Source: a virus
Taxonomy: Duplodnaviria > Caudoviricetes
IMG/VR virus record: IMGVR_UViG_3300001528_000621
Span: 64,001-128,000 of that record
Direction: 5' to 3' (one strand)
DNA length: 64,000 nucleotides
The notes under the pieces are model-generated. The model saw only the letters and a list, made by a program, of their open reading frames with translations. It was not told the DNA's origin and did not search any database. Within the stretch, counting starts at the first letter, position 1, and each line of letters starts with the position of its first letter. The position numbers and the translations under genes are program-made. Below, one piece after another: positions 10,716 through 23,651 of this stretch.

Positions 10716-10719
10716 CAAT

Positions 10720-10795: not shown

Positions 10796-10800
10796 CAAAA

Positions 10801-10944: not shown

Positions 10945-10950
10945 TAATTT

Positions 10951-11146: not shown

Positions 11147-11235
11147 GGGAGTGCAGCGACGATGGCGGTGTCGTGCGAGACTGTAAATCTCGTCCTTAAC
11201 GGTAAACATTGCTGGTTCGAATCCAGCCGCTCCCA
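11147..11235 (+). tRNA. tRNA-Tyr(GTA)
   Basis: CGAGA-CTGTAAA-TCTCG; long variable arm. Confidence 0.9.
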
Positions 11236-11342
11236 CAAAGCTATTCTCGCGATACGTTGGTAATCATCTGAAATTGATGTTTCGTAACTACGTAAAGTGA
11301 GTGTGAAGAAGGGACGGTTGAAACAGTCCTAGTTTTTATGAA

Positions 11343-11999: not shown

Positions 12000-12004
12000 T
12001 ATTT

Positions 12005-12075
12005 GGTTCCGTAGTTCAAAGGAAGAACATGAGACTGTTAATCTTAAGATCGGATATCGTGATTCCGCGGGACCG
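12005..12075 (+). tRNA. tRNA-Asn(GTT), atypical T-loop
   Basis: TGAGA-CTGTTAA-TCTTA; T-loop ATCGTGA. Confidence 0.8.
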
Positions 12076-12107
12076 CACAACCGAACAAAATACAATATCA
12101 TTGGTGT

Positions 12108-12184
12108 AGCTCCATAGCTTAGCGGTTAGAGCTCAAGCTAGCATTTCCAAGTCCAGCGACGTAGGTTCGAATCTTACTGGAGCA
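12108..12184 (+). ncRNA. tRNA-like RNA with disrupted anticodon arm
   Basis: acceptor GCTCCA/TGGAGC with canonical D and T arms; anticodon arm does not pair normally. Confidence 0.6.
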
Positions 12185-12202
12185 GCTATTTTATTTTGGT
12201 TA

Positions 12203-12265
12203 GAAGTCATGCATGGATGCAGCCGGCCCAGATGCGCTGGTAGCGGGTTCGATTCCCAACACTTC
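12203..12265 (+). ncRNA. degenerate, miniaturised tRNA-like RNA
   Basis: GAAGT/ACTTC ends, GCCGGC/GCTGGT stem, GGG-TTCGATT-CCC. Confidence 0.45.
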
Positions 12266-12266
12266 G

Positions 12267-12337
12267 GACTCTATAGCTCAGTCAGGGCAGAGCAAGCACA
12301 GTTAGCTATGTCGTAGGTTCGAATCCTACTAGAGTCG
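12267..12337 (+). ncRNA. tRNA-like RNA with shortened anticodon stem
   Basis: perfect acceptor, D and T arms; AGC-ACAGTTA-GCT gives only 3 bp. Confidence 0.65.
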
Positions 12338-12344
12338 CTAAATT

Positions 12345-12416
12345 GGTTCCATAGGTCAACGGTTAGACTAAGTGCCTCTTAAGCATTGGATCCGGATTCG
12401 AATTCCGGTGGGACCA
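12345..12416 (+). tRNA. tRNA-Lys(CTT)
   Basis: AGTGC-CTCTTAA-GCATT. Confidence 0.9.
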
Positions 12417-12425
12417 CAAAATTTT

Positions 12426-12502
12426 GGTGCATGGGTCTGCATGGAGTGGACGCCTGACTGTCACTCAGGAGATACAGATGGGTTCAATTCCCATATGCAC
12501 CG
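12426..12502 (+). tRNA. tRNA-Asp(GTC)
   Basis: CCTGA-CTGTCAC-TCAGG. Confidence 0.9.
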
Positions 12503-12532
12503 CACATTTCGGGATACAGAATATATAAAATT

Positions 12533-12607
12533 CGAGAAGTGCGCCAGAGGTCTACGCGGCTGGTTTTGGGAACCAGATTTTCGTGAGTTCGAATCTCACC
12601 TTCTCGA
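12533..12607 (+). tRNA. tRNA-Pro(TGG)
   Basis: CTGGT-TTTGGGA-ACCAG. Confidence 0.9.
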
Positions 12608-12642
12608 CTATTTTTTCAAGAAAGCGGTTCGAGTTACTATTT

Positions 12643-12715
12643 GGGTCCTTAGTGATAACGGCCAGCACGGTAGCTTTGCAAGCTTCAGGTAGGAGTTCGA
12701 TTCTCCTAGGATCCA
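12643..12715 (+). tRNA. tRNA-Ala(TGC)
   Basis: loop TTTGCAA; G3:U70 present. Confidence 0.9.
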
Positions 12716-12722
12716 CAAAAAT

Positions 12723-12794
12723 GCCCGGTTGTTGTAACGGATAGCAGACAAGTCTTCGAAACTTAGGGTCCGGGTTCGAATCCTGGACCGGGCA
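12723..12794 (+). tRNA. tRNA-Arg(TCG)
   Basis: AAGT-CTTCGAA-ACTT. Confidence 0.9.
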
Positions 12795-12795
12795 C

Positions 12796-12915
12796 AAAGA
12801 CTACTAACTATGGATAACCGGGTTAGAGTTGCTGAAATCAGAAATCGAGGGCCCTTCTCGACATTAATACTTAAGGGTTTCATGGCGGTTGCGCCAGGTA
12901 GGTTGTGTAGTCTTT
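12796..12915 (+). ncRNA. long interrupted-hairpin ncRNA, unknown class
   Basis: nested AAGACTAC/GTAGTCTT, TAACCG/CGGTTG, TGAAATC/GGTTTCA, TCGAG/CTCGA. Confidence 0.5.
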
Positions 12916-12928
12916 TTTATTTTGAAAA

Positions 12929-13291
12929 ATGGTTGGGGAAATAAGGATATTTGCAGGAACTTCTATACCGGAAGGATGGCTTTTATGTGACGGAAGCTAC
13001 TTAGATTCAAACGCATATTTAGCTTTGTTTTCTGTAATTGGAAACACTTTTGGAGGAAAGTCTGGAAAATTTAGAATACCAGAACTTAAAGGCCCGGTTG
13101 ATGATGTTACAGCTAAGCTGAAGACTTCTGTAAACGGAATGGATGCTAATCACGACGTCGTTGTAACCCTAAATCAGAACAAAAATTTAAGATACATTAT
13201 ACAATTTAAGGAAGAGGGATTGAATGTTGTTCAAAAAGCAGAGGTTCAAGCAATGATTGATGCTTCCGCTCAGACAGTTCCTGAATCTTAG
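12929..13291 (+). CDS. phage tail collar domain protein
   Basis: GEIRIFAG...P.GWLLCDGS......Y.ALFSVIG.TFGG. Confidence 0.85.
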   Translation: MVGEIRIFAGTSIPEGWLLCDGSYLDSNAYLALFSVIGNTFGGKSGKFRIPELKGPVDDVTAKLKTSVNGMDANHDVVVTLNQNKNLRYIIQFKEEGLNVVQKAEVQAMIDASAQTVPES

Positions 13292-13299
13292 AAAAATAT

Positions 13300-13373
13300 G
13301 GTGGATGTGGCCGAACGGTTTAGGCACCACACTGTGGATGTGGTTCATGCGAGTTCGAATCTCGTCATTCACC
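13300..13373 (+). tRNA. tRNA-His(GTG)
   Basis: CCACA-CTGTGGA-TGTGG; encoded G-1 and C73. Confidence 0.95.
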
Positions 13374-13378
13374 CACTG

Positions 13379-13530
13379 CTACGCTATGTCCGTGTGAAAG
13401 GCGTAGGACCCTTGCGTGTTACGGGTACGGCGAAGGGTTCGGTGAGTTGAACAAGGCGTAAGCTCAGAAGAGCTGGGAAAACTCATGGTAGAGGTACCGA
13501 ACGTTTTTTGGCTGAAAGCCTCTACGACCG
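13379..13530 (+). ncRNA. multi-stem structured ncRNA, unknown class
   Basis: CTACGCT/GGCGTAG, GACCCTT/AAGGGTT, AGCTC/GAGCT, GTAGAGG/CCTCTAC stems between two tRNAs. Confidence 0.55.
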
Positions 13531-13602
13531 GCTGAGTTAGTTAAGTAGGAAGAACACTACTGTGGTATAGTAGAGACGCCAGTTCGATTCTGACACTCAG
13601 CT
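13531..13602 (+). tRNA. tRNA-Thr(GGT)
   Basis: CTACT-GTGGTAT-AGTAG. Confidence 0.85.
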
Positions 13603-13616
13603 CTAATTTAATATCT

Positions 13617-14438
13617 ATGGAACTTTGGGAAAGATTTTGGAATAGTTTTGTACAAAGTGGACCTGTTCAACATATGAAATTTCACGAATACGATCGAATA
13701 GGTAACTATTTTGGAGGAAATATACCAGAAGACGTGACAGAGTCTTTTTTTGCAGATAAATACGGAAGAAGGGACCTAGTTCTTGAAAATCTTCAAAGTC
13801 ACGATGCAAAAGGACTGGTTGAGAGAATTAAAGAGCTTTTAGGAAAAGAAACAATTCGGTACGTAGAATTTCCACATAGAACAGGAGAGAAGGTTTACAT
13901 TGAACTCACCATAGCTTCACCAGAGCTGGTAAAGAGTGTTGTTAGTTCTGAAAAGTTTCAAAAACTAATTAAGTTCTATAATTACACTTTAGATCAGGTA
14001 GCAGGATCAAAAATTTCTCTTGAACCTAATTTTCCTAAAGTTCTAGACATTCCTGACGGAGCTTGGATCTATCATCTCGTTTGGTCAAAAGCTGTAACAG
14101 GTACAAGACCTGGATCAATCTCAATGGTAGATTCAATATTGAAGAACGGGCTTAGACCCAAAGATCACAACCAGTACAGATCCTACGGGGATAGTAAGGT
14201 TTTTGGATGGTACTTTGGAACAACTAGAAGATTCGAGGTTCTTGAAAAACTTAGAAAAGGTAGCGAAGAGCTTGGATTTGAACAAGAACATTGGGACAAA
14301 AACGAGGTGATTGTTTTAGGTATTAGAAACAGTAGAAACTTCAAGTGGTACCAAGATTCAGCAATGTATTCAGAGGGAGCTTGTTTTTCATATGATTTTA
14401 TACCTCCGCAATTCATTTCAAAAGTCTATCCAAAATAG
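13617..14438 (+). CDS. putative ADP-ribosyltransferase/Tpt1(KptA)-fold protein, paralog 1
   Basis: IYH...ILKNGLRPK...WYQD...IPPQFI; shares ENLQSHD with 20628 and 21608. Confidence 0.5.
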   Translation: MELWERFWNSFVQSGPVQHMKFHEYDRIGNYFGGNIPEDVTESFFADKYGRRDLVLENLQSHDAKGLVERIKELLGKETIRYVEFPHRTGEKVYIELTIASPELVKSVVSSEKFQKLIKFYNYTLDQVAGSKISLEPNFPKVLDIPDGAWIYHLVWSKAVTGTRPGSISMVDSILKNGLRPKDHNQYRSYGDSKVFGWYFGTTRRFEVLEKLRKGSEELGFEQEHWDKNEVIVLGIRNSRNFKWYQDSAMYSEGACFSYDFIPPQFISKVYPK

Positions 14439-14446
14439 GTAAAAAA

Positions 14447-14519
14447 GCTCTTTTCGTCTAGTGGACTAGGACATCTCATTCGTAACGAGAAAACGACTTT
14501 TCGAGTAAGTCAAGGAGCT
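14447..14519 (+). tRNA. tRNA-Thr(CGT)
   Basis: TCTCA-TTCGTAA-CGAGA. Confidence 0.8.
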
Positions 14520-14579
14520 CTAAATCTAATTTGAATATTCAACTTCTCTAATTATCTTTAGAAAGAAGTTAGAAGATAT

Positions 14580-14651
14580 GCAGTGTTAGTATAACGGTTA
14601 GTACGCTAGCTTGCCATGCTAGAGATATCGGTTCGATTCTGGTACGCTGCT
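14580..14651 (+). tRNA. tRNA-Gly(GCC)
   Basis: CTAGC-TTGCCAT-GCTAG. Confidence 0.95.
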
Positions 14652-14708
14652 CTAAAAGTATACCTATAATTTTGAATAATAGGTTATTTTACCTATAATT
14701 TAGAAAAA

Positions 14709-14780
14709 GGCCGTGTTAGTGAGAGGTTTAGCTGCTGGTCTGCAAAACCAGTTACACCGGTTCGAATCCGGTCACGGCTT
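14709..14780 (+). tRNA. tRNA-Cys(GCA)
   Basis: CTGGT-CTGCAAA-ACCAG; U73. Confidence 0.95.
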
Positions 14781-14812
14781 CTCAGATACAGGAAACTATT
14801 TAAAAGTAATAA

Positions 14813-14884
14813 GCGGATATAGCACAATGGTTAGTGCTCAAGTCTTCCAAACTTGAGATGTTGGTTCGATTCCGATTATCCGCT
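14813..14884 (+). tRNA. tRNA-Gly(TCC)
   Basis: CAAGT-CTTCCAA-ACTTG. Confidence 0.95.
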
Positions 14885-14905
14885 CAAATTGAAATCAAAC
14901 TTACA

Positions 14906-15109
14906 ATGGATAAAAGTACCAGAAAGTTTCTTAAGGTTTTGACAATCTTTATTCTAGGATTTGTAGCTCTCGTTACTAATGTTGAAATTTGGAACGTAGC
15001 TTATCTAGGACATTCAGATGGTTTTCACGTGTTTATGTCTATCATAAATTTCCTTTTTGAAGGAACAGTAATTTATTTCATTGCTAAGTCGTGGCTACCG
15101 GACAAGTAG
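14906..15109 (+). CDS. small two-TM membrane protein
   Basis: ATG after tRNA-Gly; two hydrophobic segments. Confidence 0.65.
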   Translation: MDKSTRKFLKVLTIFILGFVALVTNVEIWNVAYLGHSDGFHVFMSIINFLFEGTVIYFIAKSWLPDK

Positions 15110-15121
15110 AAGATCTTTAAT

Positions 15122-15198
15122 AGGGTCGTATCTCCTCTGCCTGATAAGCAGTTGAAAGAGTAGTCGGTTACACGTGAGTTCAAATCTCACCGACCCTA
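15122..15198 (+). tRNA. non-canonical tRNA-Ile(GAT): no D-arm, D-loop-like segment 3' of the anticodon arm
   Basis: AGGGTCG/CGACCCT acceptor, A73, CTGC-CTGATAA-GCAG, GTGAG-TTCAAAT-CTCAC. Confidence 0.75.
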
Positions 15199-15240
15199 CT
15201 AACAACACACTGTATCGGAGTTGTCTTATATTTTTAGTTT

Positions 15241-15753
15241 ATGAAAAAGAAATATAGTTGTATAAATGGTGTTTCTTCGTGGAGCGAAGGTATAAAGAAC
15301 AACTCACCGGTAGGTATAGTGGTTAGTCCTAAAAAGACACTATTGTCTGAAGGAATTCAATTTGAACCTTCTTCAAACAAAAAAGGAGGGGTAATTGTTT
15401 TTTCTACGGACATAAATGCTGTAGAGCTTTCACCGAATAAACTTAGAAATTGGATCAAGCAAAAGATCTTTACACTCAGGAACAGGTTAAGAACTACAAA
15501 AATGCTTGATCTGATAGTAGGTAGAAGTTCGGATAGGATAGAAGGATGGACGATAGGACACTACTTTGATGGACGCTACAGAGCGAAGAATGGAAACACT
15601 TTTGGAGAAAAGTCTTTATCTCTTGAAATTATAGGTATTGAGTTTAATGCTCTACTTAAAATCGCAGAGGAGATTTGTAAGGAGTTTAAGCAAGAGAGTG
15701 TTCTTCTTCGAGATTTTTCAACAGGAAGAATTTTGTTTGTAGATCCTAATTAA
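15241..15753 (+). CDS. hypothetical protein
   Basis: 170-aa ORF; C-terminal FKQESVL. Confidence 0.7.
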   Translation: MKKKYSCINGVSSWSEGIKNNSPVGIVVSPKKTLLSEGIQFEPSSNKKGGVIVFSTDINAVELSPNKLRNWIKQKIFTLRNRLRTTKMLDLIVGRSSDRIEGWTIGHYFDGRYRAKNGNTFGEKSLSLEIIGIEFNALLKIAEEICKEFKQESVLLRDFSTGRILFVDPN

Positions 15754-15763
15754 AAGAATATAC

Positions 15764-15840
15764 GCGTCGGTATGCAAACTGGATAAGCGGATAGTCTCCA
15801 AAACTATTTTGTGTGGGTTCGAATCCTACCCGGCGTGCCA
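15764..15840 (+). tRNA. tRNA-Trp(CCA)
   Basis: ATAGT-CTCCAAA-ACTAT; encoded CCA end. Confidence 0.9.
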
Positions 15841-15846
15841 AATTAT

Positions 15847-15920
15847 TGCTCTCTGGTGTAACGGCTAACATACCACGCTCTGAACGTGCGAGACTTCAAG
15901 TTCGAATCTTGAGAGAGCAA
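15847..15920 (+). tRNA. tRNA-Gln(CTG)
   Basis: CACG-CTCTGAA-CGTG; U1:A72. Confidence 0.9.
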
Positions 15921-16091
15921 CTCACTATTTTCTATTTATTTCTATATTAGAGGAAAATGGAAAATTGTCAGAGATCAGTAGAAGATCAGATTATATTTCA
16001 ATTCTATAACATTAAAGAATATTCTTCAGGAAGTTTAGAAGAACATCAGAAATCTTCTATATCTTTATGTTGTTGAAATAAAAAGAACAAT

Positions 16092-16164
16092 TGAGGTGTC
16101 GTCCAACGGTTAGGACTTCAGACTTTGACTCTGGCAATGGCGTGTTCGAATCACCCCACCTCAA
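16092..16164 (+). tRNA. tRNA-Gln(TTG)
   Basis: TCAGA-CTTTGAC-TCTGG. Confidence 0.9.
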
Positions 16165-16176
16165 CTAAGAGTAAGC

Positions 16177-17162
16177 ATGAGAAATTCTTTACAAGAACAC
16201 ATACACATTACCTACCTACTAAGGGAGGTTGAAGAACGGTTTCTCACCGAAGAGCATGGTTATGTTCCGGAACTAGATAACTACCTTCAATGCTTTAGAG
16301 AAGCTTTACCCGAAAAATATACTCCTGGTAAAGTTTTTACGATTGAAGATAATGCTTTTCAGTCAATCTCGAATTTATTTTTTAAAGACATAACAATTCA
16401 GGTTGGAGTAACCTATTCAGAGAGTGCTACTAATACATTTCCTCAAGGAAGGTACTTAGCAGACAAAGCGTTCTTTTATAAAAAAGAAAAAAAGCTACTC
16501 TATCCGGTCATAGTTCTGCTATATGTTACAAACTCCGGAGCAGAAGTAGAGGATAAGTTGGTAGAATCATTTGCACATGAACTTACTCACTGTTACGAAG
16601 ATTATCAAAGAGGATTAAAAAACTCTGATTCGCTCAGCGACACAGTTACTCAAGGATATGCATCGTGCATACAGTACGGAAAAGATGCTCAACCTTCAGA
16701 AAAGATATTAAAAAGTATACTATATTTTCTAAATAAACAAGAACAGCATGCTTATGTTGGAGAATTAAAAGCTGCACTACAGAAAGGAACAGTAGAAGAG
16801 TTAAGAAGCTCTGAAGAAGTTTTTGATTTGCTAAAGAATTCATTTTTTACAAAAATTATAGAATTGTAGAAAAGTACATGGGTCGAATTCAAGCAGAGCA
16901 ATTTAAAGACAATACAAAGCATAACATGCTTCGAAAGTTTCAAGAAATTTATCCAAATAATAGGAAAATTAGGAACTTTCATGAACTTTCTAAACTGCTT
17001 GTTTCTATGTGGGAAAGATGGGATAGAAAATTTAAAAACTCTATCGGAAAAATAGCTTTCGATATTTATTCAGACAAAGTAGGTAAAGAAAAGATATACA
17101 AAGATCCAGGATTAGAAGATCTTCTTGAAAATTACTGGACCAATGTAATAGAAGTTGTGTAG
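16177..17162 (+). pseudogene. HExxH (zincin-like) protein split by a frameshift at a T6 run (16843-16848)
   Basis: FAHELTHCYE...EQHAY; one extra T joins ORFs 16177 and 16878 colinearly with paralog 17946. Confidence 0.7.
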
Positions 17163-17176
17163 TAGTTGTTTTTAAT

Positions 17177-17249
17177 GTCCGCGTCATCTAACTGGTTAGG
17201 ATCCGGGATTTTCAGTCCCGTTATCCCGGTTCGAATCCGGGCGTGGATA
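17177..17249 (+). tRNA. tRNA-Glu(TTC)
   Basis: CGGGA-TTTTCAG-TCCCG. Confidence 0.9.
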
Positions 17250-17261
17250 CAAATAGAGGAT

Positions 17262-17335
17262 GGCCTCGTGACGCAACAGGTAGACGTGTTTGATTCAAAA
17301 TCAAAATTTTGAGGGCTCGAATCCCTCCGAGACTA
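17262..17335 (+). tRNA. tRNA-Leu(CAA), short variable loop
   Basis: TTTGA-TTCAAAA-TCAAA; Leu-type D-loop, no long V-arm, T-loop CTCGAAT. Confidence 0.8.
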
Positions 17336-17348
17336 CAACATACAACAT

Positions 17349-17422
17349 TGCGGGATGGACAGGAGAGGTTCCTGCTCGGTCTCATAAGCCGAATGACGGG
17401 GGTTCGAATCCCTCTCCCGCAA
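17349..17422 (+). tRNA. tRNA-Met(CAT), initiator-like
   Basis: TGCGGGA/TCCCGCA; TCGGT-CTCATAA-GCCGA. Confidence 0.85.
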
Positions 17423-17759
17423 CAAGAAGAGGTCCGGCCGAAAAAAGGGCCGCCCAGGCCGGGTAGCTTCTTCGCCAATTACATTCTCTCTTAAAGGAGA
17501 AGATAGTTTTCCTTAGGTAAAACCAAGATTAAATCTTACCTTTAAGAAAGATATAAGAAATGTATTAGCCTTAGTTTTCCTAAGGATTTTTAGATTAGAA
17601 GGAGCTTGAGTATTTGGGTTGTTTTCGAAGAGAGCTTCGTCACTAGGTAAAGCTAACTTGGTGATTTTTGGATAGAAAGCATACAAAACTTTCGAATGCT
17701 GATGGTACCTAGCTTCGACGTGTAGGTAAGTTAGGGAGAGGCCTTTTAGCCTACAAAAC

Positions 17760-17846
17760 GGAGAGTAATGCTGAACGGTGACAGCAGCTGCCTGCTAAGC
17801 AGTTTGTACTCTTTTTAGGTATGTGGTTCGATCCCACTGCTCTCCG
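17760..17846 (+). tRNA. tRNA-Ser(GCT)
   Basis: GCTGC-CTGCTAA-GCAGT; long V-arm; G73. Confidence 0.9.
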
Positions 17847-17855
17847 CGCTCTTAA

Positions 17856-17943
17856 GGAAGTTAATTTACAGCGGCCTGTAAGCTGGTCTTGAAAACCAGT
17901 CGTACGTAAGCATTCGTATGGGGATCGACACCTCTGACTTCCA
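17856..17943 (+). tRNA. tRNA-Ser(TGA)
   Basis: CTGGT-CTTGAAA-ACCAG; long V-arm; T-loop ATCGACA. Confidence 0.85.
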
Positions 17944-17945
17944 CT

Positions 17946-18863
17946 ATGAATTTCTTTTTAGAGCATTTACAAGCTTCTCACTTATATGGACTTGATCCTT
18001 GGGATCAAAAAGAGAAGTGCCAGGTTCTTCAAGAGAGACACGGATATGTTTCTAACTTAGATCCAATTCTAGATAAGATTTGGAGAGATATTCTTGATTC
18101 TAACCAAAAGGAAGGTTCTCTTTCTTTAGACTCTTATGGACTTTCTTTTATTTCTTCAGGCACTATATGGTATAATATAGACTCTCAGTTAGTTCGGATG
18201 CGAGGTTCTAGCCCCGATCAATTTGTGGTTCGGGACGGAAAAGCTTGTAATATTAAAATTGAGGTAGAGGTTGGAGGCTCTTTTCTTTACGTTAGAGAGC
18301 GAAACTTTAAAGTAGCACTATTTCACGAACTTTTGCACACATATGAAATTGTTCGAAGGGTTATTGGTAAGAAAGAACCAGACTATACAAAGCAAAGAAT
18401 GTACTATAGAGATGTAATGGAGTACATCAACAATCCTAAAAAGTACTTCCAGGAAATAGGACGGTTTTTGTACTACGACAATGCATCGGAAAGAAATGCT
18501 TACGTAGGAGAACTTCGAGCAGAGTTAAAGTTTTACGCAGACGAACTGGGTAATTCCATCACAGCTTTACATAGAATAAAAGAAACAGAGGTTTTTAGAA
18601 GATATTGGGGAATAGAAACATACATTTCAAAACTAAAAGAGGAGATAGGAAGAAATAACGAAAAGGGTTTGCAGTATTTGGAGCTTTGGAATGCTCTCGT
18701 ACCAGAAAGGTATCAGCACGGGACTGCAAAAGCCTTATTGCAGGATTTAGAAAAAAGGTGGTACAAGTTTAGAAAAAAATTTTATACAGTTGCCGGAAAG
18801 GTTTGTTTTGATCTTTACAATGAAACAAAAGAAATAAGAAAAGGCTTACCTGTAGAATTATGA
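17946..18863 (+). CDS. HExxH (zincin-like) protein, intact paralog of 16177
   Basis: ERHGYV, LFHELLHTYE, SERNAYVGEL. Confidence 0.7.
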   Translation: MNFFLEHLQASHLYGLDPWDQKEKCQVLQERHGYVSNLDPILDKIWRDILDSNQKEGSLSLDSYGLSFISSGTIWYNIDSQLVRMRGSSPDQFVVRDGKACNIKIEVEVGGSFLYVRERNFKVALFHELLHTYEIVRRVIGKKEPDYTKQRMYYRDVMEYINNPKKYFQEIGRFLYYDNASERNAYVGELRAELKFYADELGNSITALHRIKETEVFRRYWGIETYISKLKEEIGRNNEKGLQYLELWNALVPERYQHGTAKALLQDLEKRWYKFRKKFYTVAGKVCFDLYNETKEIRKGLPVEL

Positions 18864-18871
18864 GTAATATA

Positions 18872-19048
18872 GGGTCTGTGGAGGTAGCTAACTCCCAGAA
18901 TCGAAAGCACGAACAGCCTCTACTGTATATAGCATGCTTAAAGGTTCGGTTGGATCGTTAGCCAATTCTCTGCTGCTCTCCAGAGAGTCGTTTATCAAGA
19001 GAGCTTTTGGCCAGCCTCGAAGAACATACTTCGGGGCTTTATTTTTTT
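18872..19048 (+). ncRNA. structured ncRNA ending in an intrinsic terminator
   Basis: GTGGAGG/CCTCTAC, GCTAAC/GTTAGC, GCTCTC/GAGAGC; terminator AGCCTCGAAG/CTTCGGGGCT plus T-run. Confidence 0.45.
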
Positions 19049-19100
19049 CTTTAAATATTCAGATAATTTATATATCTTTAGTTTAAGGTTTAAGAAGAGA

Positions 19101-19784
19101 ATGAGAGTGAATAGAAACATACTCATTGTAGTAGCTCATCCTGATGACGAATTACTACTAGCAGGAGGACTGATAAGCAAACAGCAATCAGAGAAGTCTT
19201 GTCAAATTTCTGTCTGTACGTTAGCTAGTAATGCTGGAGCTCGTAGTACTGGTTCGGGTCCAGAAAAGATAGCTAAAAAGCAGAAAGAGGTTTTTAACAT
19301 ACTCAATCTTAAAGCTTACAATTACGGAGGACAAGATTCAAACTTGACTATTGAAAACCATTTAAAGATGGTACAATTTATAGAGTCTGTCATCGTACAG
19401 GAATATCCAAGTCTGATCATAACTCACAGTCCTTACGATACTCATAAGGATCATCAGATAGTGTCGCAGCTTGTCTCTGAAGCGTTCAGATATTTTCAAA
19501 GACCTTCAGGGCTATTGTCAGGAATAAAGGAGCTTTGGTGGGGGGAAGTGCCGTCGTCTACAGACTGGTCTGTATCGGCTCAATTTTGTCCAAATGTATG
19601 GATACCGTTAGAGGCTCAAGATCTCTATAGGAAGATAGAAGGTCTTGCAACGTATGACAAGGTCTTAAGGCCTTCGCCACATCCGAGATCTAGAAAAAAC
19701 TTAGAAGCATTAGCAACGTTTAGAGGAGGCCAGTGTGGAAGTACGTACGCTGAAGCATTCCAGCAAGTTTTCAGAATAGTGTAG
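19101..19784 (+). CDS. PIG-L/LmbE family deacetylase
   Basis: VAHPDDE, ITH...DTHKDH, AEAF. Confidence 0.9.
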   Translation: MRVNRNILIVVAHPDDELLLAGGLISKQQSEKSCQISVCTLASNAGARSTGSGPEKIAKKQKEVFNILNLKAYNYGGQDSNLTIENHLKMVQFIESVIVQEYPSLIITHSPYDTHKDHQIVSQLVSEAFRYFQRPSGLLSGIKELWWGEVPSSTDWSVSAQFCPNVWIPLEAQDLYRKIEGLATYDKVLRPSPHPRSRKNLEALATFRGGQCGSTYAEAFQQVFRIV

Positions 19785-19787
19785 AGT

Positions 19788-20252
19788 ATGGAATTTTATA
19801 AGTTTGACGGAACTAAAGTAGATCTTGTAGAGTACGTAAACTCTCATCTTGAAAAGTATCCAGAAGATTCTATAGAGATCTTGGTTGGGACAGATTCTCA
19901 GATAAGAGGAAAAGAGACAGTGTTTTGCACTATTGTAGCAATGTACGATCTTGGACACGGAGCTCATTGTATATACAGGAGATGGAAAACACCTAGATTT
20001 CGGAAAGAGGAGATAGACAGACGATTGATGAAGGAAGTAGAAGCTTCAATAGATGTAGCTCAACTAATTAAGTTCAATTGCTGGGAAGATCCAAAATACA
20101 TCGATCTGGACATAAATCCAGGAGAAGAAGCTGGATCTAATATCGTCTATCAAGCTGCTTGCGGGTACGTTAAAGGTATGGGATATCAGTGTAGGTTTAA
20201 AACTCTTGGACCTCTTTGTACTACTTTAGCAGACTATGTTGTAAAACATTAA
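19788..20252 (+). CDS. RNase H-like YkuK (DUF458) family protein
   Basis: VGTDSQ, RL..EV..S, DLDIN, ADY. Confidence 0.8.
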   Translation: MEFYKFDGTKVDLVEYVNSHLEKYPEDSIEILVGTDSQIRGKETVFCTIVAMYDLGHGAHCIYRRWKTPRFRKEEIDRRLMKEVEASIDVAQLIKFNCWEDPKYIDLDINPGEEAGSNIVYQAACGYVKGMGYQCRFKTLGPLCTTLADYVVKH

Positions 20253-20302
20253 AGAGCATCAAAAAATCTTTTTATATTTAGCTTGTTAAGTTATTAAAAC
20301 TA

Positions 20303-20569
20303 ATGAATATCAAAGGAATGAGAGGCATCTCATTGGTACGTGAATGTAGGTACTCCGAGCCCAATAGAAAGGAGACTATCATGGTAAAATATCAGTTCAG
20401 AGCTAAGTGTAATGCAGCAATACCGCTTAGTCATAAGAATTTTCAGGACCAGTATCTGTCAGAAAGCTATGAAGCACCAAAGCTGCCGCCAGTTGTAAAA
20501 AAGCATAAGAACGGAAAAGGACAGCAGAAACCTTCAAAACTTCAGAAGCACAAAAACTCTTACGCATAA
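20303..20569 (+). CDS. small basic hypothetical protein
   Basis: promoter motif upstream; Lys-rich tail. Confidence 0.55.
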   Translation: MNIKGMRGISLVRECRYSEPNRKETIMVKYQFRAKCNAAIPLSHKNFQDQYLSESYEAPKLPPVVKKHKNGKGQQKPSKLQKHKNSYA

Positions 20570-20627
20570 AAGAAACGTATCAAGAAAGGTCCGGCTACAG
20601 TAGTCGGATCTTTCTATTTAATTCGGT

Positions 20628-21605
20628 ATGAATTGGGAAGAAAAATTTAATAGGTTTAAGAACAGTACTACAGCTGAATTGTATGAAGAGAAGTACGGTT
20701 CGGTTGTAGGCCCGTATCTCTATGAACTTGGAGAAAAAGATAAAGTTCATAGAAAGCAATCCTGGTTCGTAGAGCAGCGGTACAACAGGATTCAAGAGTT
20801 CTATGATTTTGATCCAGACGGCGTACCGGTTGAAATTCAAGAACAGTTTCTTAAGAACAATAGACTTAGCTTGGATGCTATCATTGATGAAAATTTACAA
20901 ACACATGATGCTGAAAAGCTACGAAAAGCTCTCGAAAAAAGGTTTGGACCTCAACCAAAATTTAAAAACGAACAAGGATACATAACTTGGATACCTACAG
21001 GAGGAACAGAAAAAGAGAAAGGTATTCAAATGTACGAAAGAACGAAAGAAGCTTTTGAACACTGGAAAGAAGGTACATTAGGAAGCTTTGAGGTTTTAGA
21101 GATAGCTCAATTTTATGGGTACTTTATAACGAGAGTATCTTGGGGCGAAATTGTTTTCGAAGCCAACAAACCGGAAGATGTAACGAAATACGTAGAAAAT
21201 ATATGCGGGGGATTTGCATATCATGTTGTTCCTGAGTTTTTTGCAGCAGATATCCAGAAGAACGGTCTTCGAGTAAAAAACGGAAATACTTGGAATCTTG
21301 ATTGGGATAAAAACGGTACACTGTATCGAGATACTTCATACAGAAACACGACAAAAGATCAGTACCGGTATTTTCCTAAAAGAGTTTACATGCATGCAAC
21401 TCCTTCAACCGGAGAAAAACTAGAAAGAGAACTAAGGTCAGTAGCTGCAATGGCAACGGGTATGTCCTATGAAGATGTAGCTGTCTTTAAAGCCTACGTC
21501 AAAGGATTGACTTTCTATAAAGATCCGGCAATGGTCGGTGAAGATGACTGTGCAGTGTTCACGTATCACTCAATACCTTCTCAAAACCTTAAAAGAGTGC
21601 ACTGA
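20628..21605 (+). CDS. putative ART/Tpt1-fold protein, paralog 2
   Basis: AYH.V....IQKNGLR...FPKRVY...FYKDP...FTYHSIP. Confidence 0.55.
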   Translation: MNWEEKFNRFKNSTTAELYEEKYGSVVGPYLYELGEKDKVHRKQSWFVEQRYNRIQEFYDFDPDGVPVEIQEQFLKNNRLSLDAIIDENLQTHDAEKLRKALEKRFGPQPKFKNEQGYITWIPTGGTEKEKGIQMYERTKEAFEHWKEGTLGSFEVLEIAQFYGYFITRVSWGEIVFEANKPEDVTKYVENICGGFAYHVVPEFFAADIQKNGLRVKNGNTWNLDWDKNGTLYRDTSYRNTTKDQYRYFPKRVYMHATPSTGEKLERELRSVAAMATGMSYEDVAVFKAYVKGLTFYKDPAMVGEDDCAVFTYHSIPSQNLKRVH

Positions 21606-21607
21606 CC

Positions 21608-22592
21608 GTGAATTGGGAAGAAAGATTTAAAGAATTTAAGAATGAAAAATCGAAAGATTTACTCTATGAAGAAAAATATGGACCGGTTGTAGGACCTTGG
21701 CTTCTTGAATTTAAAGAGAAGGATAAGTTTCATCTTCAAGCTTTTCGTAGAGCTAAAGAACGCTACGAAGGACTTCAGGAGTTCTTTAGAGCTTTTACAG
21801 ACGATGTACCTCAAACCATTCAAGAGGATTTTATAAAAGGTCTAAATTTCAACAAAAATTACATTCTTGAAAATCTTCAATCTCACGACTGGAAGAAAAT
21901 GTGGAGTCAAATTCAAACCTATTTCGGGAAGGAAATTGTAGGCCGAATGGAATCTTTAGGCGGAGAAGGAGGACTAAAATGTGTACAATGGTATCCTAAA
22001 ATTACACAAAAAGAACTAATTAGAGCTTTTTGGAGAGATATCAAAGACGAAAACTCTAAAGACGGAAAAGCTCTTCGGACAATTCTTAGGTTTTACGGAT
22101 ATTTTATTTCTCAAATAGAACAGTATAGCTACATTCTTTTAGAGCCAGAGTGGCCCGATAGTGCTTCTGATTTTGTTTTTAGGGAATGTAAAGAAGGGAC
22201 TATATACTGTATTATTCCTAGATGTAACGTAGATTTAATCTTAGAACGAGGATTTAAGTGTTCTAACGGAAATAAAATAGAGTGGAAAGAAGATTTCAAA
22301 AACAGGACTGGAAGATATCCAACCAAAGAGGAAACAAACAGTAATTTTATACCGTACAGGTTTTTTTCCAAAAAGGATCTACTTTTGTGCTTTTCCTTTT
22401 ACTGAAGTTGAATCAGAGTTAAGGAATATGACGAGAGAGCTTGAAAGGGACTGGACAGAAGTATCTATACTCAGAGCAGATTTGTCTGGCAGAAACATTA
22501 GCGTTTATCGAGATCCGGGTATGTTATCTAAAAATGCTTTCTTTACTTATGAGAATATTCCTAGACAACTAATTACTCTAATAAAAAGATAG
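21608..22592 (+). pseudogene. ART/Tpt1-fold paralog 3, frameshifted at a T7 run (22361-22367)
   Basis: removing one T gives YRFFPKRIYF...VYRDPGM...FTYENIP, colinear with 20628. Confidence 0.75.
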
Positions 22593-22645
22593 TTTTTATT
22601 TTTCATAAATTCTATTTATATTTAGCTTAGAAGATAAGAAGAAAT

Positions 22646-22717
22646 GCCTCGGTCGTTCAATGGACAGGACAGCAGTCTTCTAAACTGCTTACCGGAGTTC
22701 GAGTCTCCGCTGAGGTA
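22646..22717 (+). tRNA. tRNA-Arg(TCT)
   Basis: GCAGT-CTTCTAA-ACTGC. Confidence 0.95.
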
Positions 22718-22733
22718 CAAACTAAAAAAAGAC

Positions 22734-23105
22734 ATGAAAGATCAACTTTGAGAAAAGAAATTTGCTGAGTTTAAGAACGAAGGTACAGAAGCTAGTGACA
22801 TTCGTACGTACATTGAAGAGCATAAAGAGGAAATAATCAATGCTTTTGAGTACGATGATTCCGGAACAGACGTCTATCCTAGAGACTGCGTAGAAACTTT
22901 TACTCTCAATAAGAACATTACTGGTTGTGATCTTCGATTTACTCTAGAGTGTGTATCGGATCGAGACGGAGGCAATGAAGAGGAAGATGTTTTGGAATTC
23001 GAGATTAATGGACGAGATTGTCGAAACCCTAAACTCTATAGTGAAGAGGATAAGCTTGAAAGCTTGTTAGCGGACCTAGCATCTGAGCGACGATTTATTG
23101 AATAA
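22734..23105 (+). pseudogene. 123-codon acidic ORF with an in-frame TGA at codon 6
   Basis: MKDQL*EKKFAEFKN matches the W-E-x-[KR]-F-x-x-FKN N-termini of 20628 and 21608. Confidence 0.6.
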
Positions 23106-23209
23106 AGTAAGCTTTGAGTCTGTTCGAAAGGTAAAGAAATTCGACAGTCGTAGTTGAGAAGGCTTTACGATTCTCTCTACACGGTAGGTTAGCTTCACCT
23201 ACCAAATAC

Positions 23210-23280
23210 GTTCTTGTCGTCCAATGGAAGGACACATCTCTCCTAAAGATGAAATCTAGGTTCGAGTCCTAGCTAGAATA
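23210..23280 (+). tRNA. tRNA-Arg(CCT)
   Basis: CATCT-CTCCTAA-AGATG. Confidence 0.9.
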
Positions 23281-23287
23281 CAAAATT

Positions 23288-23372
23288 GCCTTGGTGATGG
23301 AAAGGTAGACATGGGGGACTTAAAATCCCTTGGGCAGCAATGCCCGTGTGGGTTCGAATCCCATCTGAGGCA
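23288..23372 (+). tRNA. tRNA-Leu(TAA)
   Basis: GGGGA-CTTAAAA-TCCCT; long V-arm. Confidence 0.95.
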
Positions 23373-23380
23373 CCGCGATA

Positions 23381-23570
23381 GGGTCGCAAACTTCGCCACA
23401 ATCTATGGTTGGGCATTGCAGACACTCGGATGAGCTCTTAGTACTGCAGCAAATCTCATCAAGATGTCTTACTTAGGTCTATAGAAACCGCGGAGTGAAA
23501 ACCTAAGAGTTGAGGAGCTCCTCATAGTAGAATAGCTTGTGCCTCCTTAAGGTAGTACGGTTTGCGATCC
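23381..23570 (+). ncRNA. ~190-nt structured ncRNA, possibly pseudoknotted
   Basis: 11-bp terminal helix GGGTCGCAAAC/GTTTGCGATCC; CTTAGGT/ACCTAAG; TGCAG/CTGCA crossing GATGAG/CTCATC. Confidence 0.6.
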
Positions 23571-23575
23571 GATAC

Positions 23576-23651
23576 AGGGGCGTATCCGCTCACTCTTATA
23601 CAGTGTTGAAACGGTAACGGTAACATAAGGGTTCAAATCCCTTCGCCCCTA
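23576..23651 (+). tRNA. non-canonical tRNA-Ile(TAT), same architecture as 15122
   Basis: AGGGGCG/CGCCCCT, A73, CACT-CTTATAC-AGTG, AAGGG-TTCAAAT-CCCTT. Confidence 0.75.

What the first reader, a model, noticed from the sequence alone, without database searches (positions are those of the whole stretch)
15122..23651. Both Ile tRNAs have a rearranged, non-cloverleaf fold: no D-arm, and a D-loop-like GG segment after the anticodon arm
Seen: 15122-15198 = AGGGTCG TAT CTC CT CTGC [CTGATAA] GCAG TTGAAA GAG TAGTCGGTTACAC GTGAG TTCAAAT CTCAC CGACCCT A; 23576-23651 = AGGGGCG TAT CCG CT CACT [CTTATAC] AGTG TTGAAA CGG TAACGGTAACAT AAGGG TTCAAAT CCCTT CGCCCCT A. Acceptor, anticodon and T stems are perfectly paired yet differ in sequence. 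An extra helix covaries (CTC/GAG vs CCG/CGG), while the linkers TAT, CT, TTGAAA and CGGT.ACA are conserved. Both have A73 and Ile anticodons (GAU, UAU), and they are the only Ile decoders in an array covering all 20 amino acids. Knowledge: the tRNA elbow needs D-loop G18G19 contacts with the T-loop, and most bacteria read AUA with lysidine-modified CAU rather than UAU. Inference: a maintained tRNA class that rebuilds the L-shape with different strand connectivity, possibly evading anticodon nucleases and bypassing TilS.
Basis: partly seen in the sequence, partly recalled or inferred. Interest (0 to 1): 0.92.

Follow-up and report, generated by a model that had tools for sequence, protein, structure and literature searches.

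The report
Rewired-core phage isoleucine tRNAs
The two odd genes are very probably this phage's only isoleucine tRNAs; their D-arm is not missing but split and re-joined around the anticodon arm, a non-cloverleaf layout shared by more than a hundred phage tRNA genes that gene finders miss and that I could not find described in any paper.

Summary
Window 15122-15198 (anticodon GAU) and 23576-23651 (UAU) have perfect acceptor, anticodon and T stems. A 3-bp helix encloses the anticodon arm, and a GG-containing segment follows it.

They are not D-armless. The extra helix takes the place of the D-stem, and the segment after it is a complete D-loop (A14 R15 YY G18 G19 N20 N A21), then a base that covaries with R15 like Y48.

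Pattern scans found about 108 distinct phage genes of this build. In a 98-sequence alignment the extra helix pairs in 100% of sequences, with 24-42 double changes per pair. ARAGORN finds none of 106.

The class is not Ile-specific. Anticodons are Ile (GAU, UAU), CAU and six Arg, plus one UAC. The base after GG is A in all 53 Arg-type genes and U in 41 of 45 Ile/CAU-type genes, matching canonical identity rules.

Arrays with a rewired GAU gene almost never also hold a canonical GAU tRNA (1/23 against 25/44).

This complete 187.8-kb phage has no canonical tRNA-Ile, IleRS, TilS or CCA enzyme, and 22 per 1000 codons are AUA.

Function as host-charged decoders is inferred; there are no RNA data. 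Nuclease evasion is untested.

This scan has already noted the same class on other DNA (at least 38 genomes).

The parts
15122..15198 (+). Rewired-core tRNA-Ile(GAU), 77 nt, no encoded CCA
   Evidence: Sequence. Family model R1 scores 92.9 bits. RF00005 scores 34.2 bits with the D-arm deleted. Missed by ARAGORN.
15122..15128 (+). Copy 1, acceptor 5' strand. It pairs 7/7 with 15191-15197. A73 is at 15198.
15129..15131 (+). Copy 1, U8 A9 U linker (TAT). Not required by the search pattern, yet T8 and A9 are invariant and T10 is at least 90% conserved in the family.
15132..15134 (+). Copy 1, 5' strand of the D-stem-like helix (CTC). It pairs with GAG at 15158-15160 and encloses the anticodon arm.
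   Evidence: Alignment columns 11-13/37-39 are 100% paired in 98 sequences, with 24-42 double changes per pair. RNAalifold predicts the helix independently.
15137..15151 (+). Copy 1, anticodon arm: stem CTGC/GCAG, loop CTGATAA, anticodon GAT at 15143-15145. The flanking T15136 and T15152 may form a U-U fifth layer.
15152..15157 (+). Copy 1, TTGAAA linker between the anticodon stem and the 3' helix strand.
   Evidence: Its invariance in alignment A1 is imposed by the search pattern. Relatives found by the model alone carry TAGAAA and other linkers.
15158..15160 (+). Copy 1, 3' strand of the D-stem-like helix (GAG).
15161..15173 (+). Copy 1, displaced D-loop and connector: T13 A14 G15 T C G18 G19 T20 T A21, then C A C. 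The last C covaries with G15 in the manner of the 15-48 Levitt pair.
   Evidence: Columns 42/52 are A-U in 74 sequences and G-C in 14. The same loop sequences occur in canonical D-loops of neighbouring tRNAs. The base after GG tracks the anticodon.
15174..15190 (+). Copy 1, T-arm: GTGAG / TTCAAAT / CTCAC.
23576..23651 (+). Rewired-core tRNA-Ile(UAU), 76 nt, no encoded CCA. Its end lies 4 nt before the amidase gene at 23656-24264.
   Evidence: Sequence. R1 scores 85.0 bits. RF00005 scores 25.7-31.9 bits. Missed by ARAGORN. Amidase_3 match.
23586..23588 (+). Copy 2, 5' strand of the D-stem-like helix (CCG). It pairs with CGG at 23612-23614.
23591..23605 (+). Copy 2, anticodon arm: CACT / CTTATAC / AGTG, anticodon TAT at 23597-23599.
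23606..23614 (+). Copy 2, TTGAAA linker followed by the 3' helix strand CGG.
23615..23626 (+). Copy 2, displaced D-loop and connector (T A A C G G T A A C A T). The loop is one base shorter than in copy 1. A15 pairs with the final T.
23627..23643 (+). Copy 2, T-arm: AAGGG / TTCAAAT / CCCTT.
10054..23374 (+). Surrounding tRNA array: 31 ARAGORN tRNAs for 19 amino acids and no Ile. Interspersed ORFs are all on the + strand.

Best explanation
Both loci are working isoleucine tRNA genes of a complete 188-kb phage. One reads AUU/AUC (GAU) and one reads AUA (UAU). They belong to a widespread phage-borne tRNA class with a rewired core.

In standard numbering the gene order is 1-9, then 22-45, then 10-21, then about 46-76. 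After U8 A9, one strand of a 3-bp D-stem-like helix leads straight into the anticodon arm. The return strand of that helix comes after the anticodon arm and a TTGAAA linker. A complete D-loop follows, and a short connector ending in the Y48 equivalent leads into the T-arm.

The anticodon arm is therefore nested inside the D-stem, and the D-loop hangs from the correct end of the strand equivalent to 10-13. From there G18G19 can still reach the T-loop and R15 can still pair with Y48. The three re-joined junctions (9|10, 21|22 and within the variable loop) all lie together in the core of a normal tRNA, so an L-shape should be retained.

Shown here: the helices, their covariation, the D-loop identity, the identity-linked base after GG, and the replacement of canonical isoacceptors.

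Inferred: the L-shaped fold; 5' and 3' processing and CCA addition by host enzymes, which read the intact acceptor/T half; charging by host IleRS through GAU/UAU, A37, A73 and U20; and use in translation to serve the phage's 64 Ile codons per 1000, of which 22 are AUA.
For: 1. Structure.
- In 98 distinct family members found by a pattern that did not demand any pairing, 98.5% of cells pair.
- The extra helix pairs in 100% of sequences, with four Watson-Crick types at each position and no G-U.
- Sliding the 3' partners by 1-3 columns drops pairing to 35-44%.
- RNAalifold finds the same four helices unaided.
- Within this genome, 20 of the 24 differences between the two copies are compensatory.

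2. The segment after the helix is a true D-loop.
- Canonical tRNAs in the same phage loci have D-loops AATTGGTCA (Ile) and AATGGATA/AATGGACA (Arg). These are the same strings as in rewired genes of the same anticodon class.
- R15 covaries with the last connector base: A-U 74, G-C 14.

3. Identity logic.
- The base after GG is A in 53/53 genes with C35 (Arg). It is U in 41, C in 3 and A in 1 of the genes with A35.
- Among 982 canonical tRNAs of the same loci, that base is A in 57/62 Arg, 1/42 Ile and 1/52 Met.
- A20 is the main ArgRS determinant and U20/A73 are listed for bacterial Ile (PMC9976931).
- All 45 A35 genes have A73.

4. Replacement.
- Arrays with a rewired GAU hold a canonical GAU in 1/23 cases, against 25/44 for other arrays (Fisher p = 1.2e-5).
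- For ACG the figures are 0/18 against 11/49. Pooled p = 1.9e-5.
- A 96%-complete crAss-like contig (L005) has 20 canonical tRNAs, no Ile, and the same rewired GAU+UAU pair.
- Kehishuvirus tikkala pairs a rewired GAU with a canonical UAU.

5. This genome.
- It is complete, with direct terminal repeats and a CheckV completeness of 100%.
- It has no match to the IleRS family, the CCA-adding enzyme or TilS, and no canonical tRNA-Ile.
- Codon use per 1000 is ATT 30.3, ATC 11.3, ATA 22.1.

6. Plausibility. The E. coli synthetase, EF-Tu and ribosome accept even a fully D-armless tRNA without adaptation (PMC11551756).
Against: - There are no expression, end-mapping, modification or aminoacylation data for any member. 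No RNA run could be listed for this phage.
- The 3D fold is inferred from conservation only.
- The anticodon stem has only 4 Watson-Crick pairs plus a conserved U-U.
- The E. coli minor Ile determinants C4-G69 and U12-A23 are absent from both copies.
- The invariance of TTGAAA, TA, GG, ACA and TTC.A.T in my alignment is imposed by the search pattern.
- The replacement test used partial loci of at most about 15 kb, and contigs that are partly related to each other.
- The single CAU tRNA in the window could be a tRNA-Ile2, so 'no other Ile decoder' is not absolute.
Confidence: 0.78

Rival explanations
1. These are tRNA-like RNAs that do not decode. For example, they could be decoys or sponges for tRNA-directed host nucleases or modification enzymes, processing punctuation in the array transcript, or primers. 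They would keep the acceptor/T half and an anticodon-like hairpin for recognition only.
For: No direct evidence of charging or ribosomal use exists. Standard finders reject them. Phage arrays do hold tRNA look-alikes; another 75-nt tRNA-like element sits at 10566-10640.
Against: A decoy would be expected in addition to the matching canonical tRNA, not instead of it. Yet canonical tRNAs with the same anticodon are nearly always absent. Synthetase identity bases (A20 or U20, A73 or G73) track the anticodon. The anticodon loops keep U33 and A37. This complete genome would otherwise cover 19 amino acids and leave out one that makes up 6.4% of its codons.
Confidence: 0.12
2. These are precursors that are cut and re-ligated, by splicing-like or repair-like processing, into an ordinary cloverleaf tRNA.
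For: Permuted tRNA genes that are repaired at the RNA level exist in the red alga Cyanidioschyzon (own knowledge). I did not test that beyond Pfam, which found no family for these ORFs.
Against: Restoring the canonical order would need a transposition of two internal segments, meaning three cuts and three ordered ligations. A circular intermediate would not do it, because the acceptor ends are already in place. No intron-like insertion or bulge-helix-bulge motif is visible. The helix that only exists in the unrearranged RNA covaries perfectly, so selection acts on that form. The genes also occur in phages of Streptomyces, Microbacterium and Bacteroides with no shared accessory gene nearby; only homing endonucleases recur.
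Confidence: 0.03
3. These are decayed or recombination-scrambled tRNA pseudogenes, or a chance resemblance.
For: Homing endonucleases are common in these arrays and could scramble genes.
Against: About 108 of 110 distinct pattern matches in viral contigs show the complete architecture with all stems paired. There is extensive compensatory change. The family model separates the two genes by about 60 bits from everything else in the window. The same design occurs in phages of unrelated hosts.
Confidence: 0.02

Closest known systems
Canonical bacterial and phage tRNA-Ile(GAU) and tRNA-Ile(UAU) (Rfam RF00005)
   Same: 7-bp acceptor stem, A73, a 7-nt anticodon loop with U33/A37, a T-arm with a TTCRANT loop, and a D-loop of the same sequence type (A R Y Y G G U N A) as canonical phage tRNA-Ile in the same arrays. 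Overall length is also the same (76-77 nt).
   Different: The D-stem does not close the D-loop. Its two strands flank the anticodon arm, and the D-loop lies 3' of it. There is a 6-nt linker where the variable loop starts. The anticodon stem has 4 Watson-Crick pairs plus U-U. RF00005 must delete the D-arm to align them.
D-armless mitochondrial tRNAs (mammalian mt-tRNA-Ser(AGY), nematode mt-tRNAs) and the engineered mini HisT of E. coli (PMC7609411, PMC11551756)
   Same: There is no hairpin D-arm between the acceptor and anticodon stems. They show that translation can use non-cloverleaf tRNAs.
   Different: Those tRNAs are truncated to about 55-62 nt. They have lost the D-loop and the D-loop/T-loop elbow contact, and they fold into altered shapes. 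The genes here are full length and keep a complete D-loop with GG, a D-stem-like helix and a 15-48-type covarying pair. The arm is rearranged, not lost.
Circularly permuted tRNA genes of Cyanidioschyzon merolae (own knowledge)
   Same: The order of tRNA segments in the gene differs from the canonical order.
   Different: There the 3' half precedes the 5' half, and RNA processing through a circular intermediate restores a normal cloverleaf. Here the acceptor ends are in place, only internal segments are swapped, and covariation supports the unrearranged RNA as the selected form.
allo-tRNAs with 8/4 or 9/3 acceptor/T branches (Mukai et al., PMC5389517)
   Same: They are non-standard tRNA architectures found by mining genomes, metagenomes and phages, and they are missed or mis-scored by standard tools.
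   Different: allo-tRNAs keep the cloverleaf topology and change stem lengths. This class keeps the stem lengths of the acceptor/T branch (7/5) and changes topology. The window also holds an allo-tRNA-like gene at 17856-17942.

Membership tests
Canonical tRNA (Rfam RF00005 cloverleaf) | 7-bp acceptor stem, discriminator base, and a 5-bp T-stem with a 7-nt T-loop | tested here: met
   Both copies have 7/7 and 5/5 pairs and a TTCAAAT loop.
Canonical tRNA (Rfam RF00005 cloverleaf) | D-arm hairpin (stem 10-13/22-25 closing the D-loop) between position 9 and the anticodon arm | tested here: not met
   Infernal replaces 15 model positions with 4 nt and inserts 17-18 nt after the anticodon arm.
Canonical tRNA (Rfam RF00005 cloverleaf) | Score at or above the gathering score (29 bits) | tested here: inconclusive
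   Copy 1 scores 34.2 bits. Copy 2 scores 31.9 or 25.7 bits, depending on the stretch searched. None of 21 relatives in 20 loci was listed at E <= 0.01, while canonical neighbours scored 40-75 bits.
Rewired-core phage tRNA class (model R1, built here) | 3-bp Watson-Crick helix whose strands flank the anticodon arm | tested here: met
   CTC/GAG and CCG/CGG in the two copies. The family pairs in 100% of sequences with rich covariation.
Rewired-core phage tRNA class (model R1, built here) | Complete D-loop motif (T A R Y(Y) G G N N A) directly 3' of the helix, then a connector whose last base covaries with R15 | tested here: met
   Copy 1 has G15 with C. Copy 2 has A15 with T.
Rewired-core phage tRNA class (model R1, built here) | High score with the family covariance model | tested here: met
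   92.9 and 85.0 bits; the next hit in the window is 27.7 bits. Both sequences are part of the model's seed, so the score is partly by construction.
Bacterial isoleucine identity (Giege and Eriani 2023, PMC9976931) | A35 U36 with G34 (or a modified wobble base), A37, A73 | tested here: met
   GAT and TAT anticodons, A37 and A73 in both copies. A38 is present in copy 1 and is C38 in copy 2.
Bacterial isoleucine identity (Giege and Eriani 2023, PMC9976931) | U20 in the D-loop | tested here: met
   T follows GG in both copies. In the family it is T in 41 of 45 A35 genes, against A in 53 of 53 Arg genes.
Bacterial isoleucine identity (Giege and Eriani 2023, PMC9976931) | E. coli minor determinants C4-G69 and U12-A23 | tested here: not met
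   Both copies have G4-C69. The helix pair equivalent to 12-23 is G-C in both. These determinants come from E. coli and may not apply to the unknown host.
Bacterial isoleucine identity (Giege and Eriani 2023, PMC9976931) | Actual aminoacylation with isoleucine | not testable with these tools
   This needs biochemistry or charged-tRNA sequencing.
D-armless mitochondrial-type tRNA | D-arm replaced by a short connector, loss of the D-loop GG/T-loop contact, and a shortened molecule | tested here: not met
   The genes are full length (76-77 nt), with a complete D-loop including GG and a D-stem-like helix.
Circularly permuted tRNA gene | The 3' half is encoded upstream of the 5' half, so the acceptor ends are internal to the gene | tested here: not met
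   The acceptor strands are at the two ends of the gene and pair 7/7.

The most novel reading that the evidence does not exclude
The cloverleaf is not the only tRNA topology used in bacterial cytoplasmic translation. On this reading a natural, horizontally mobile scaffold with a transposed D-segment serves IleRS, MetRS and ArgRS in many phages. It would be kept because the altered D-arm connectivity makes these tRNAs poor substrates for host, or phage-inflicted, tRNA-directed nucleases, decay or modification enzymes that read the D-arm, while synthetase, EF-Tu and ribosome still accept them.
Probability: 0.2. Interest if true: 0.92.

Novelty: new variant of a known kind. Interest (0 to 1): 0.85.

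Why it matters
[quoted passage not shown] If these genes are charged and used, several things follow.

- They would be a natural counter-example, present in more than a hundred phage lineages and on mobile elements of cultured bacteria.
- They would show which parts of the tRNA core are topologically negotiable for class Ia synthetases, EF-Tu, RNase P, the CCA enzyme and the ribosome.
- They would give a natural scaffold for orthogonal tRNA engineering.
- They would correct phage annotations. This phage, crAss-like phages and Streptomyces and Microbacterium phages are currently credited with incomplete tRNA sets, because ARAGORN finds none of these genes and the general Infernal model scores them at the threshold.
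- Codon-usage arguments about why phages carry tRNAs are affected, since Ile and Arg decoders are systematically undercounted.

Tried and rejected
- RNA evidence: a search for public RNA runs holding window 14001-24000 listed no RNA holder. Nothing can be said about expression, and read laying was therefore not used.
- Literature: eight full-text searches and four papers read found no description of this layout. Subscription journals are not covered, so this is not proof of novelty.
- Accessory protein: I looked for a dedicated synthetase, CCA enzyme or TilS in the genome and found none. I also looked for any protein family recurrently next to rewired genes in 106 loci. Only HNH and other homing-type endonucleases recur. 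I did not compare this with arrays lacking rewired genes, so no inference is drawn.
- Pfam scan of 18 ORFs in and around the array found nothing tRNA-related.
- Host and relatives: a tblastn search with the DNA ligase found no cultured phage above 39% identity, so the host stays unknown. The nearest rewired GAU genes are in crAss-like gut contigs.
- Single-sequence folding is uninformative for copy 2: the minimum-energy fold is an alternative structure and z is only about -2. The comparative fold was needed.
- Rejected readings: Ile-specific class (Arg dominates); truly D-armless fold (D-loop and helix are present); chance match (2 of 110 pattern hits were chance and the rest are full members).

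Full report
**1. The observation**

- Copy 1 is 15122-15198, 77 nt, anticodon GAT.
- Copy 2 is 23576-23651, 76 nt, anticodon TAT.
- Each has a 7/7 acceptor stem, a 4/4 anticodon stem with a canonical 7-nt loop (C U NNN A N), a 5/5 T-stem with loop TTCAAAT, and A73. Neither has an encoded CCA.
- Between TAT (U8 A9 U) and the anticodon stem lie three bases (CTC; CCG). They pair with three bases after the anticodon stem and a TTGAAA linker (GAG; CGG).
- A 12-13-nt segment with GG follows.

ARAGORN misses both, in the window and in the whole genome. Rfam's general tRNA model can align them only by deleting the D-arm (15 model positions replaced by 4 nt) and inserting 17-18 nt after the anticodon arm. 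It gives 34.2 and 25.7-31.9 bits, around the gathering score of 29.

The two copies are 53/77 identical. Of their 24 differing columns, 20 form ten fully compensatory pairs spread over all helices, including two pairs of the extra helix. The remaining four are the wobble base, position 38, a 1-nt loop indel and one loop base. That alone is far from chance.

**2. A large family**

A blastn search of cultured phages found the same build, unannotated, in two places:
- inside the tRNA array of the crAss-like Kehishuvirus tikkala, with anticodon GAT;
- in Streptomyces phages Stanimal and Yaboi, with anticodon CCT, an arginine anticodon.

A second query found it in 48 Streptomyces and Microbacterium phage records. 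Forty-seven had no annotated feature under the match, and one weak match lay under an HNH endonuclease gene.

Two degenerate patterns fixed only the linker, TA, GG, ACA and the T-loop, and demanded no base pairing.
- Of 110 distinct matches, 108 show the complete architecture with all stems paired. Two are chance hits.
- ARAGORN calls none of 106.
- I aligned 98 well-paired members (A1) and built a covariance model (R1).
- In the window R1 finds only the two genes (92.9 and 85.0 bits). The next hit is a canonical tRNA at 27.7 bits.

Caveat: the invariance of TTGAAA, TA, GG, ACA and TTC.A.T in A1 is imposed by the pattern. T8 A9, the usual T10, and C14 T15 were not imposed and are still conserved. 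Members found by the model alone carry other linkers such as TAGAAA, and other lengths. The real family is therefore broader than the pattern.

**3. Structure**

On A1, 98.5% of all pair cells are standard pairs. This compares with 58.8% in column shuffles and 35-44% when the 3' partners are slid by 1-3 columns.

The extra helix (columns 11-13 with 37-39) pairs in 100% of sequences. Each pair has all four Watson-Crick types, 24-42 double changes and no G-U. RNAalifold predicts the same four helices without being told.

Column 42 (third base after the helix, A or G) covaries with column 52 (last base before the T-stem): A-U 74, G-C 14, other 8. This matches the composition of the R15-Y48 Levitt pair of ordinary tRNAs.

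Reading the segment after the helix in standard numbering gives T13 A14 R15 Y Y G18 G19 N20 N A21. As a control I parsed the D-arms of the 982 canonical tRNAs that ARAGORN finds in the same loci. Their D-loops are AATTGGTCA and similar for Ile, and AATGGATA, AATGGACA and AACGGATA for Arg. The same strings occur in rewired genes of the same anticodon class.

So the D-arm is not absent. Its loop is intact, and its stem is formed by two strands that now flank the anticodon arm.

**4. How the rewiring can keep the L-shape (inference)**

The 5' helix strand runs continuously into the 5' strand of the anticodon stem. In a coaxial stack it therefore occupies the place of 23-25, and the 3' helix strand occupies the place of 10-12. 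From there the chain continues into A14 as in every tRNA.

In standard numbers the gene order is 1-9 | 22-45 | 10-21 | about 46-76. This is a swap of two adjacent internal segments.

In the classical tRNA-Phe structure (own knowledge), position 9 docks on 12-23, 45 on 10-25, 46 on 13-22, and 21 on 8-14. The three junctions that must be re-joined therefore lie next to each other in the core. Short connectors could bridge them: the extra T after U8 A9, the GAAA of the linker, and the C A before Y48.

The acceptor/T half is untouched. RNase P, RNase Z, the CCA enzyme and EF-Tu mainly read that half.

**5. Evidence that they decode**

*(a) Anticodons.* Only ten anticodons occur among the 98 genes of alignment A1:

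| Anticodon | Count |
|---|---|
| GAT | 23 |
| ACG | 22 |
| TCT | 21 |
| TAT | 14 |
| CCT | 7 |
| CAT | 7 |
| GCG, TCG, CCG, TAC | 1 each |

Apart from the one TAC, these are all Ile, Met/Ile2 and Arg, the clients of three class Ia synthetases that rely on the anticodon.

*(b) Identity bases.* The strongest non-helix covariation in the alignment links the middle anticodon base to the base after GG.
- C35 goes with A in 53/53 genes. A35 goes with U in 41, C in 3 and A in 1.
- In the canonical controls, that base is A in 57/62 tRNA-Arg but in 1/42 Ile and 1/52 Met.
- A20 is the principal ArgRS determinant, and U20 and A73 are listed for bacterial Ile (PMC9976931).
- All 45 A35 genes have A73. 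Arg-type genes have G73 (30), A73 (19) or U73 (4).

*(c) Replacement of canonical isoacceptors.* The test used loci with at least five canonical tRNAs.
- A rewired GAT gene coexists with a canonical GAT tRNA in 1/23 cases, against 25/44 in arrays whose rewired gene has another anticodon (Fisher p = 1.2e-5).
- For ACG the figures are 0/18 against 11/49 (p = 0.02). Pooled over non-CAT anticodons, p = 1.9e-5.
- The loci are partial, and some contigs are related to each other, so the p-values are optimistic. The effect is large all the same.
- Whole records agree. A 96%-complete crAss-like contig (L005) has 20 canonical tRNAs, none for Ile, and a rewired GAT plus a rewired TAT, as here. Kehishuvirus tikkala has a rewired GAT beside a canonical TAT.

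*(d) Lineage coherence.* A tree built without the anticodon loop, N20 and N73 clusters genes by identity class: 13 changes against 40.7 in shuffles. The window's two genes are each closer to genes of other phages than to each other (69%). Copy 1 is 85% identical to a crAss-like GAT gene and copy 2 is 83% identical to another TAT gene. They are two long-maintained lineages, not a recent duplicate.

**6. This phage**

- The genome is a complete IMG/VR record of 187,848 bp with direct terminal repeats. It is 38% G+C, and all 175 ORFs of at least 100 aa lie on one strand.
- All 31 ARAGORN tRNAs lie in the window and cover 19 amino acids.
- Ile makes up 6.4% of codons. ATA alone is 22.1 per 1000, a third of all Ile codons.
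- No match to the IleRS family, the CCA-adding enzyme or TilS is encoded. Processing, CCA addition and charging must therefore be done by the host.
- The host is unknown. The best cultured relative of the DNA ligase is 39% identical. The nearest rewired GAU genes are in crAss-like gut contigs.
- The single CAU tRNA (17349-17423) has a 1-72 base pair and lacks the three G-C pairs of initiators (hand parse). It is probably elongator Met, but a lysidine-type Ile2 cannot be excluded.

**7. Distribution outside phages**

The same pattern scanned over one genome for each of 185,579 prokaryote species gave 59 loci. Twenty of them hold 21 strong members at 84 bits or more.
- Most are MAG contigs with phage-like tRNA arrays. 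One 'Paceibacterota' contig has the same length (362,763 bp) as an IMG/VR viral contig that holds the same rewired GAU gene.
- Three Cytophagales genomes carry a 96-97.5% identical rewired tRNA-Ile(UAU) in non-syntenic surroundings. They are isolates Chryseolinea sp. H1M3-3 and Chryseosolibacter indicus, and a closed Chryseolinea MAG chromosome.
- In H1M3-3 the gene sits in a 10-tRNA array next to ParA-like and MobA/VirD2 relaxase genes. It is therefore on a mobilisable island rather than a native core gene.

**8.

'Bypassing TilS' follows from the UAU anticodon, not from the fold. Canonical UAU tRNAs are present in 16 of 60 comparison arrays.

'Evading anticodon nucleases' has no support here. 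The anticodon loops are fully canonical, and I found no associated defence or counter-defence gene. Resistance to enzymes that read the D-arm remains possible and is stated as the novel case.

A simpler account is a single origin followed by anticodon switching among synthetases that tolerate the scaffold. Spread could be through the mobile, endonuclease-rich tRNA arrays.

**9. Comparison with what is known**

- The class is not a member of the canonical cloverleaf family in the structural sense, because the D-arm hairpin test fails.
- It is not like mitochondrial D-armless tRNAs or the engineered mini HisT, which are truncated and lose the elbow contact (PMC7609411, PMC11551756).
- It is not a circularly permuted gene, because the acceptor ends are terminal.
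- I found no paper describing the layout in eight full-text searches. A 2024 paper states that all known bacterial tRNAs are cloverleaves.
- Earlier agents of this scan noted the same class on other DNA: 43 notes in at least 38 genomes, first as an Arg(UCU) gene of Felix O1-like phages. I reached the same reading before consulting them and re-derived the evidence independently.

**10. Verdict**

The secondary structure is as secure as comparative analysis can make it. Function as host-charged Ile decoders is strongly suggested by identity logic and by replacement of canonical isoacceptors, but no RNA-level data support it yet.

Noticed in passing
window 17856-17942 (+): An 87-nt tRNA missed by ARAGORN, directly after tRNA-Ser(GCU). 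It has an 8-bp acceptor stem, a 6-bp D-stem with a 4-nt loop, a 6-bp anticodon stem, loop CUUGAAA (anticodon UGA, Ser) and a long variable arm. This is an allo-tRNA- or tRNA-Sec-like build. The Rfam tRNA-Sec model scores it 47.8 bits.
   Followed up: partly
window 10566-10640 (+): A 75-nt element between tRNA-Lys and tRNA-Glu. A 7-bp closing stem encloses a T-arm-like hairpin (loop UUCGACU) and two further hairpins. Folding z-score is -2.2. No tRNA finder or Rfam family claims it. Another first-reader note calls it a permuted tRNA mimic.
   Followed up: partly
window 12108-12186 and 12267-12338 (+): Two odd canonical-type calls. One is a 79-nt 'tRNA-Ala(AGC)' with only 34.5 bits on RF00005 and a poor anticodon arm in the single-sequence fold. 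The other is a tRNA-Cys with anticodon ACA beside a normal tRNA-Cys(GCA).
   Followed up: no
window 17349-17423 (+): By hand parse, the only CAU tRNA seems to have four rather than two bases between the acceptor and D stems. It has a paired 1-72 and no initiator-type G-C run, so it is probably elongator Met. It scores 44.6 bits on RF00005.
   Followed up: partly
L221 (Chryseolinea sp. H1M3-3, contig 1, 1541000-1560999), L222, L223, L210: A rewired tRNA-Ile(UAU) that is 96-97.5% identical occurs in three Cytophagales genomes with non-syntenic flanks. In the isolate H1M3-3 it lies in a 10-tRNA array beside ParA-like and MobA/VirD2 relaxase genes. This suggests a mobilisable island and gives a cultured, phage-free system for testing the class.
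   Followed up: partly
L126:5182-5262 and 5269-5347; L097:4368-4457, 4872-4949, 5086-5165; L161:7210-7286; L180:4553-4629; L160:1190-1266: Divergent relatives scoring 33-58 bits with R1. They have other linkers (TAGAAC, TACTTA, TAAAAC and others) and longer connectors, again with only Ile, CAU or Arg anticodons. The rewired design seems to be a superfamily with several sub-architectures.
   Followed up: partly
loci L033-L153, within 2.5 kb of rewired genes; window 11343-11999: HNH endonucleases (32 loci) and a second endonuclease family (12 loci) recur next to rewired tRNA genes. The window's array also holds an endonuclease-like ORF (DUF7487/Phage_endo_I). No comparison was made with arrays lacking rewired genes.
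   Followed up: partly
window 13617-14438, 17946-18863, 20628-21605, 21608-22405 (+): Four ORFs of 265-325 aa inside the tRNA array have no Pfam match at E <= 0.01. Another first-reader note suspects ART/Tpt1-like folds. That was not tested by structure here.
   Followed up: no
L041:981-1183 (-): A group I intron (RF00028, 65.3 bits) lies within a viral tRNA array that also carries a rewired CAU gene.
   Followed up: no
L201:1341-1412 (+): A suppressor-type tRNA with anticodon TTA (reads UAA) in the tRNA array of a contig binned as Rhodoferax. The contig also holds a rewired Arg(UCU) gene.
   Followed up: no
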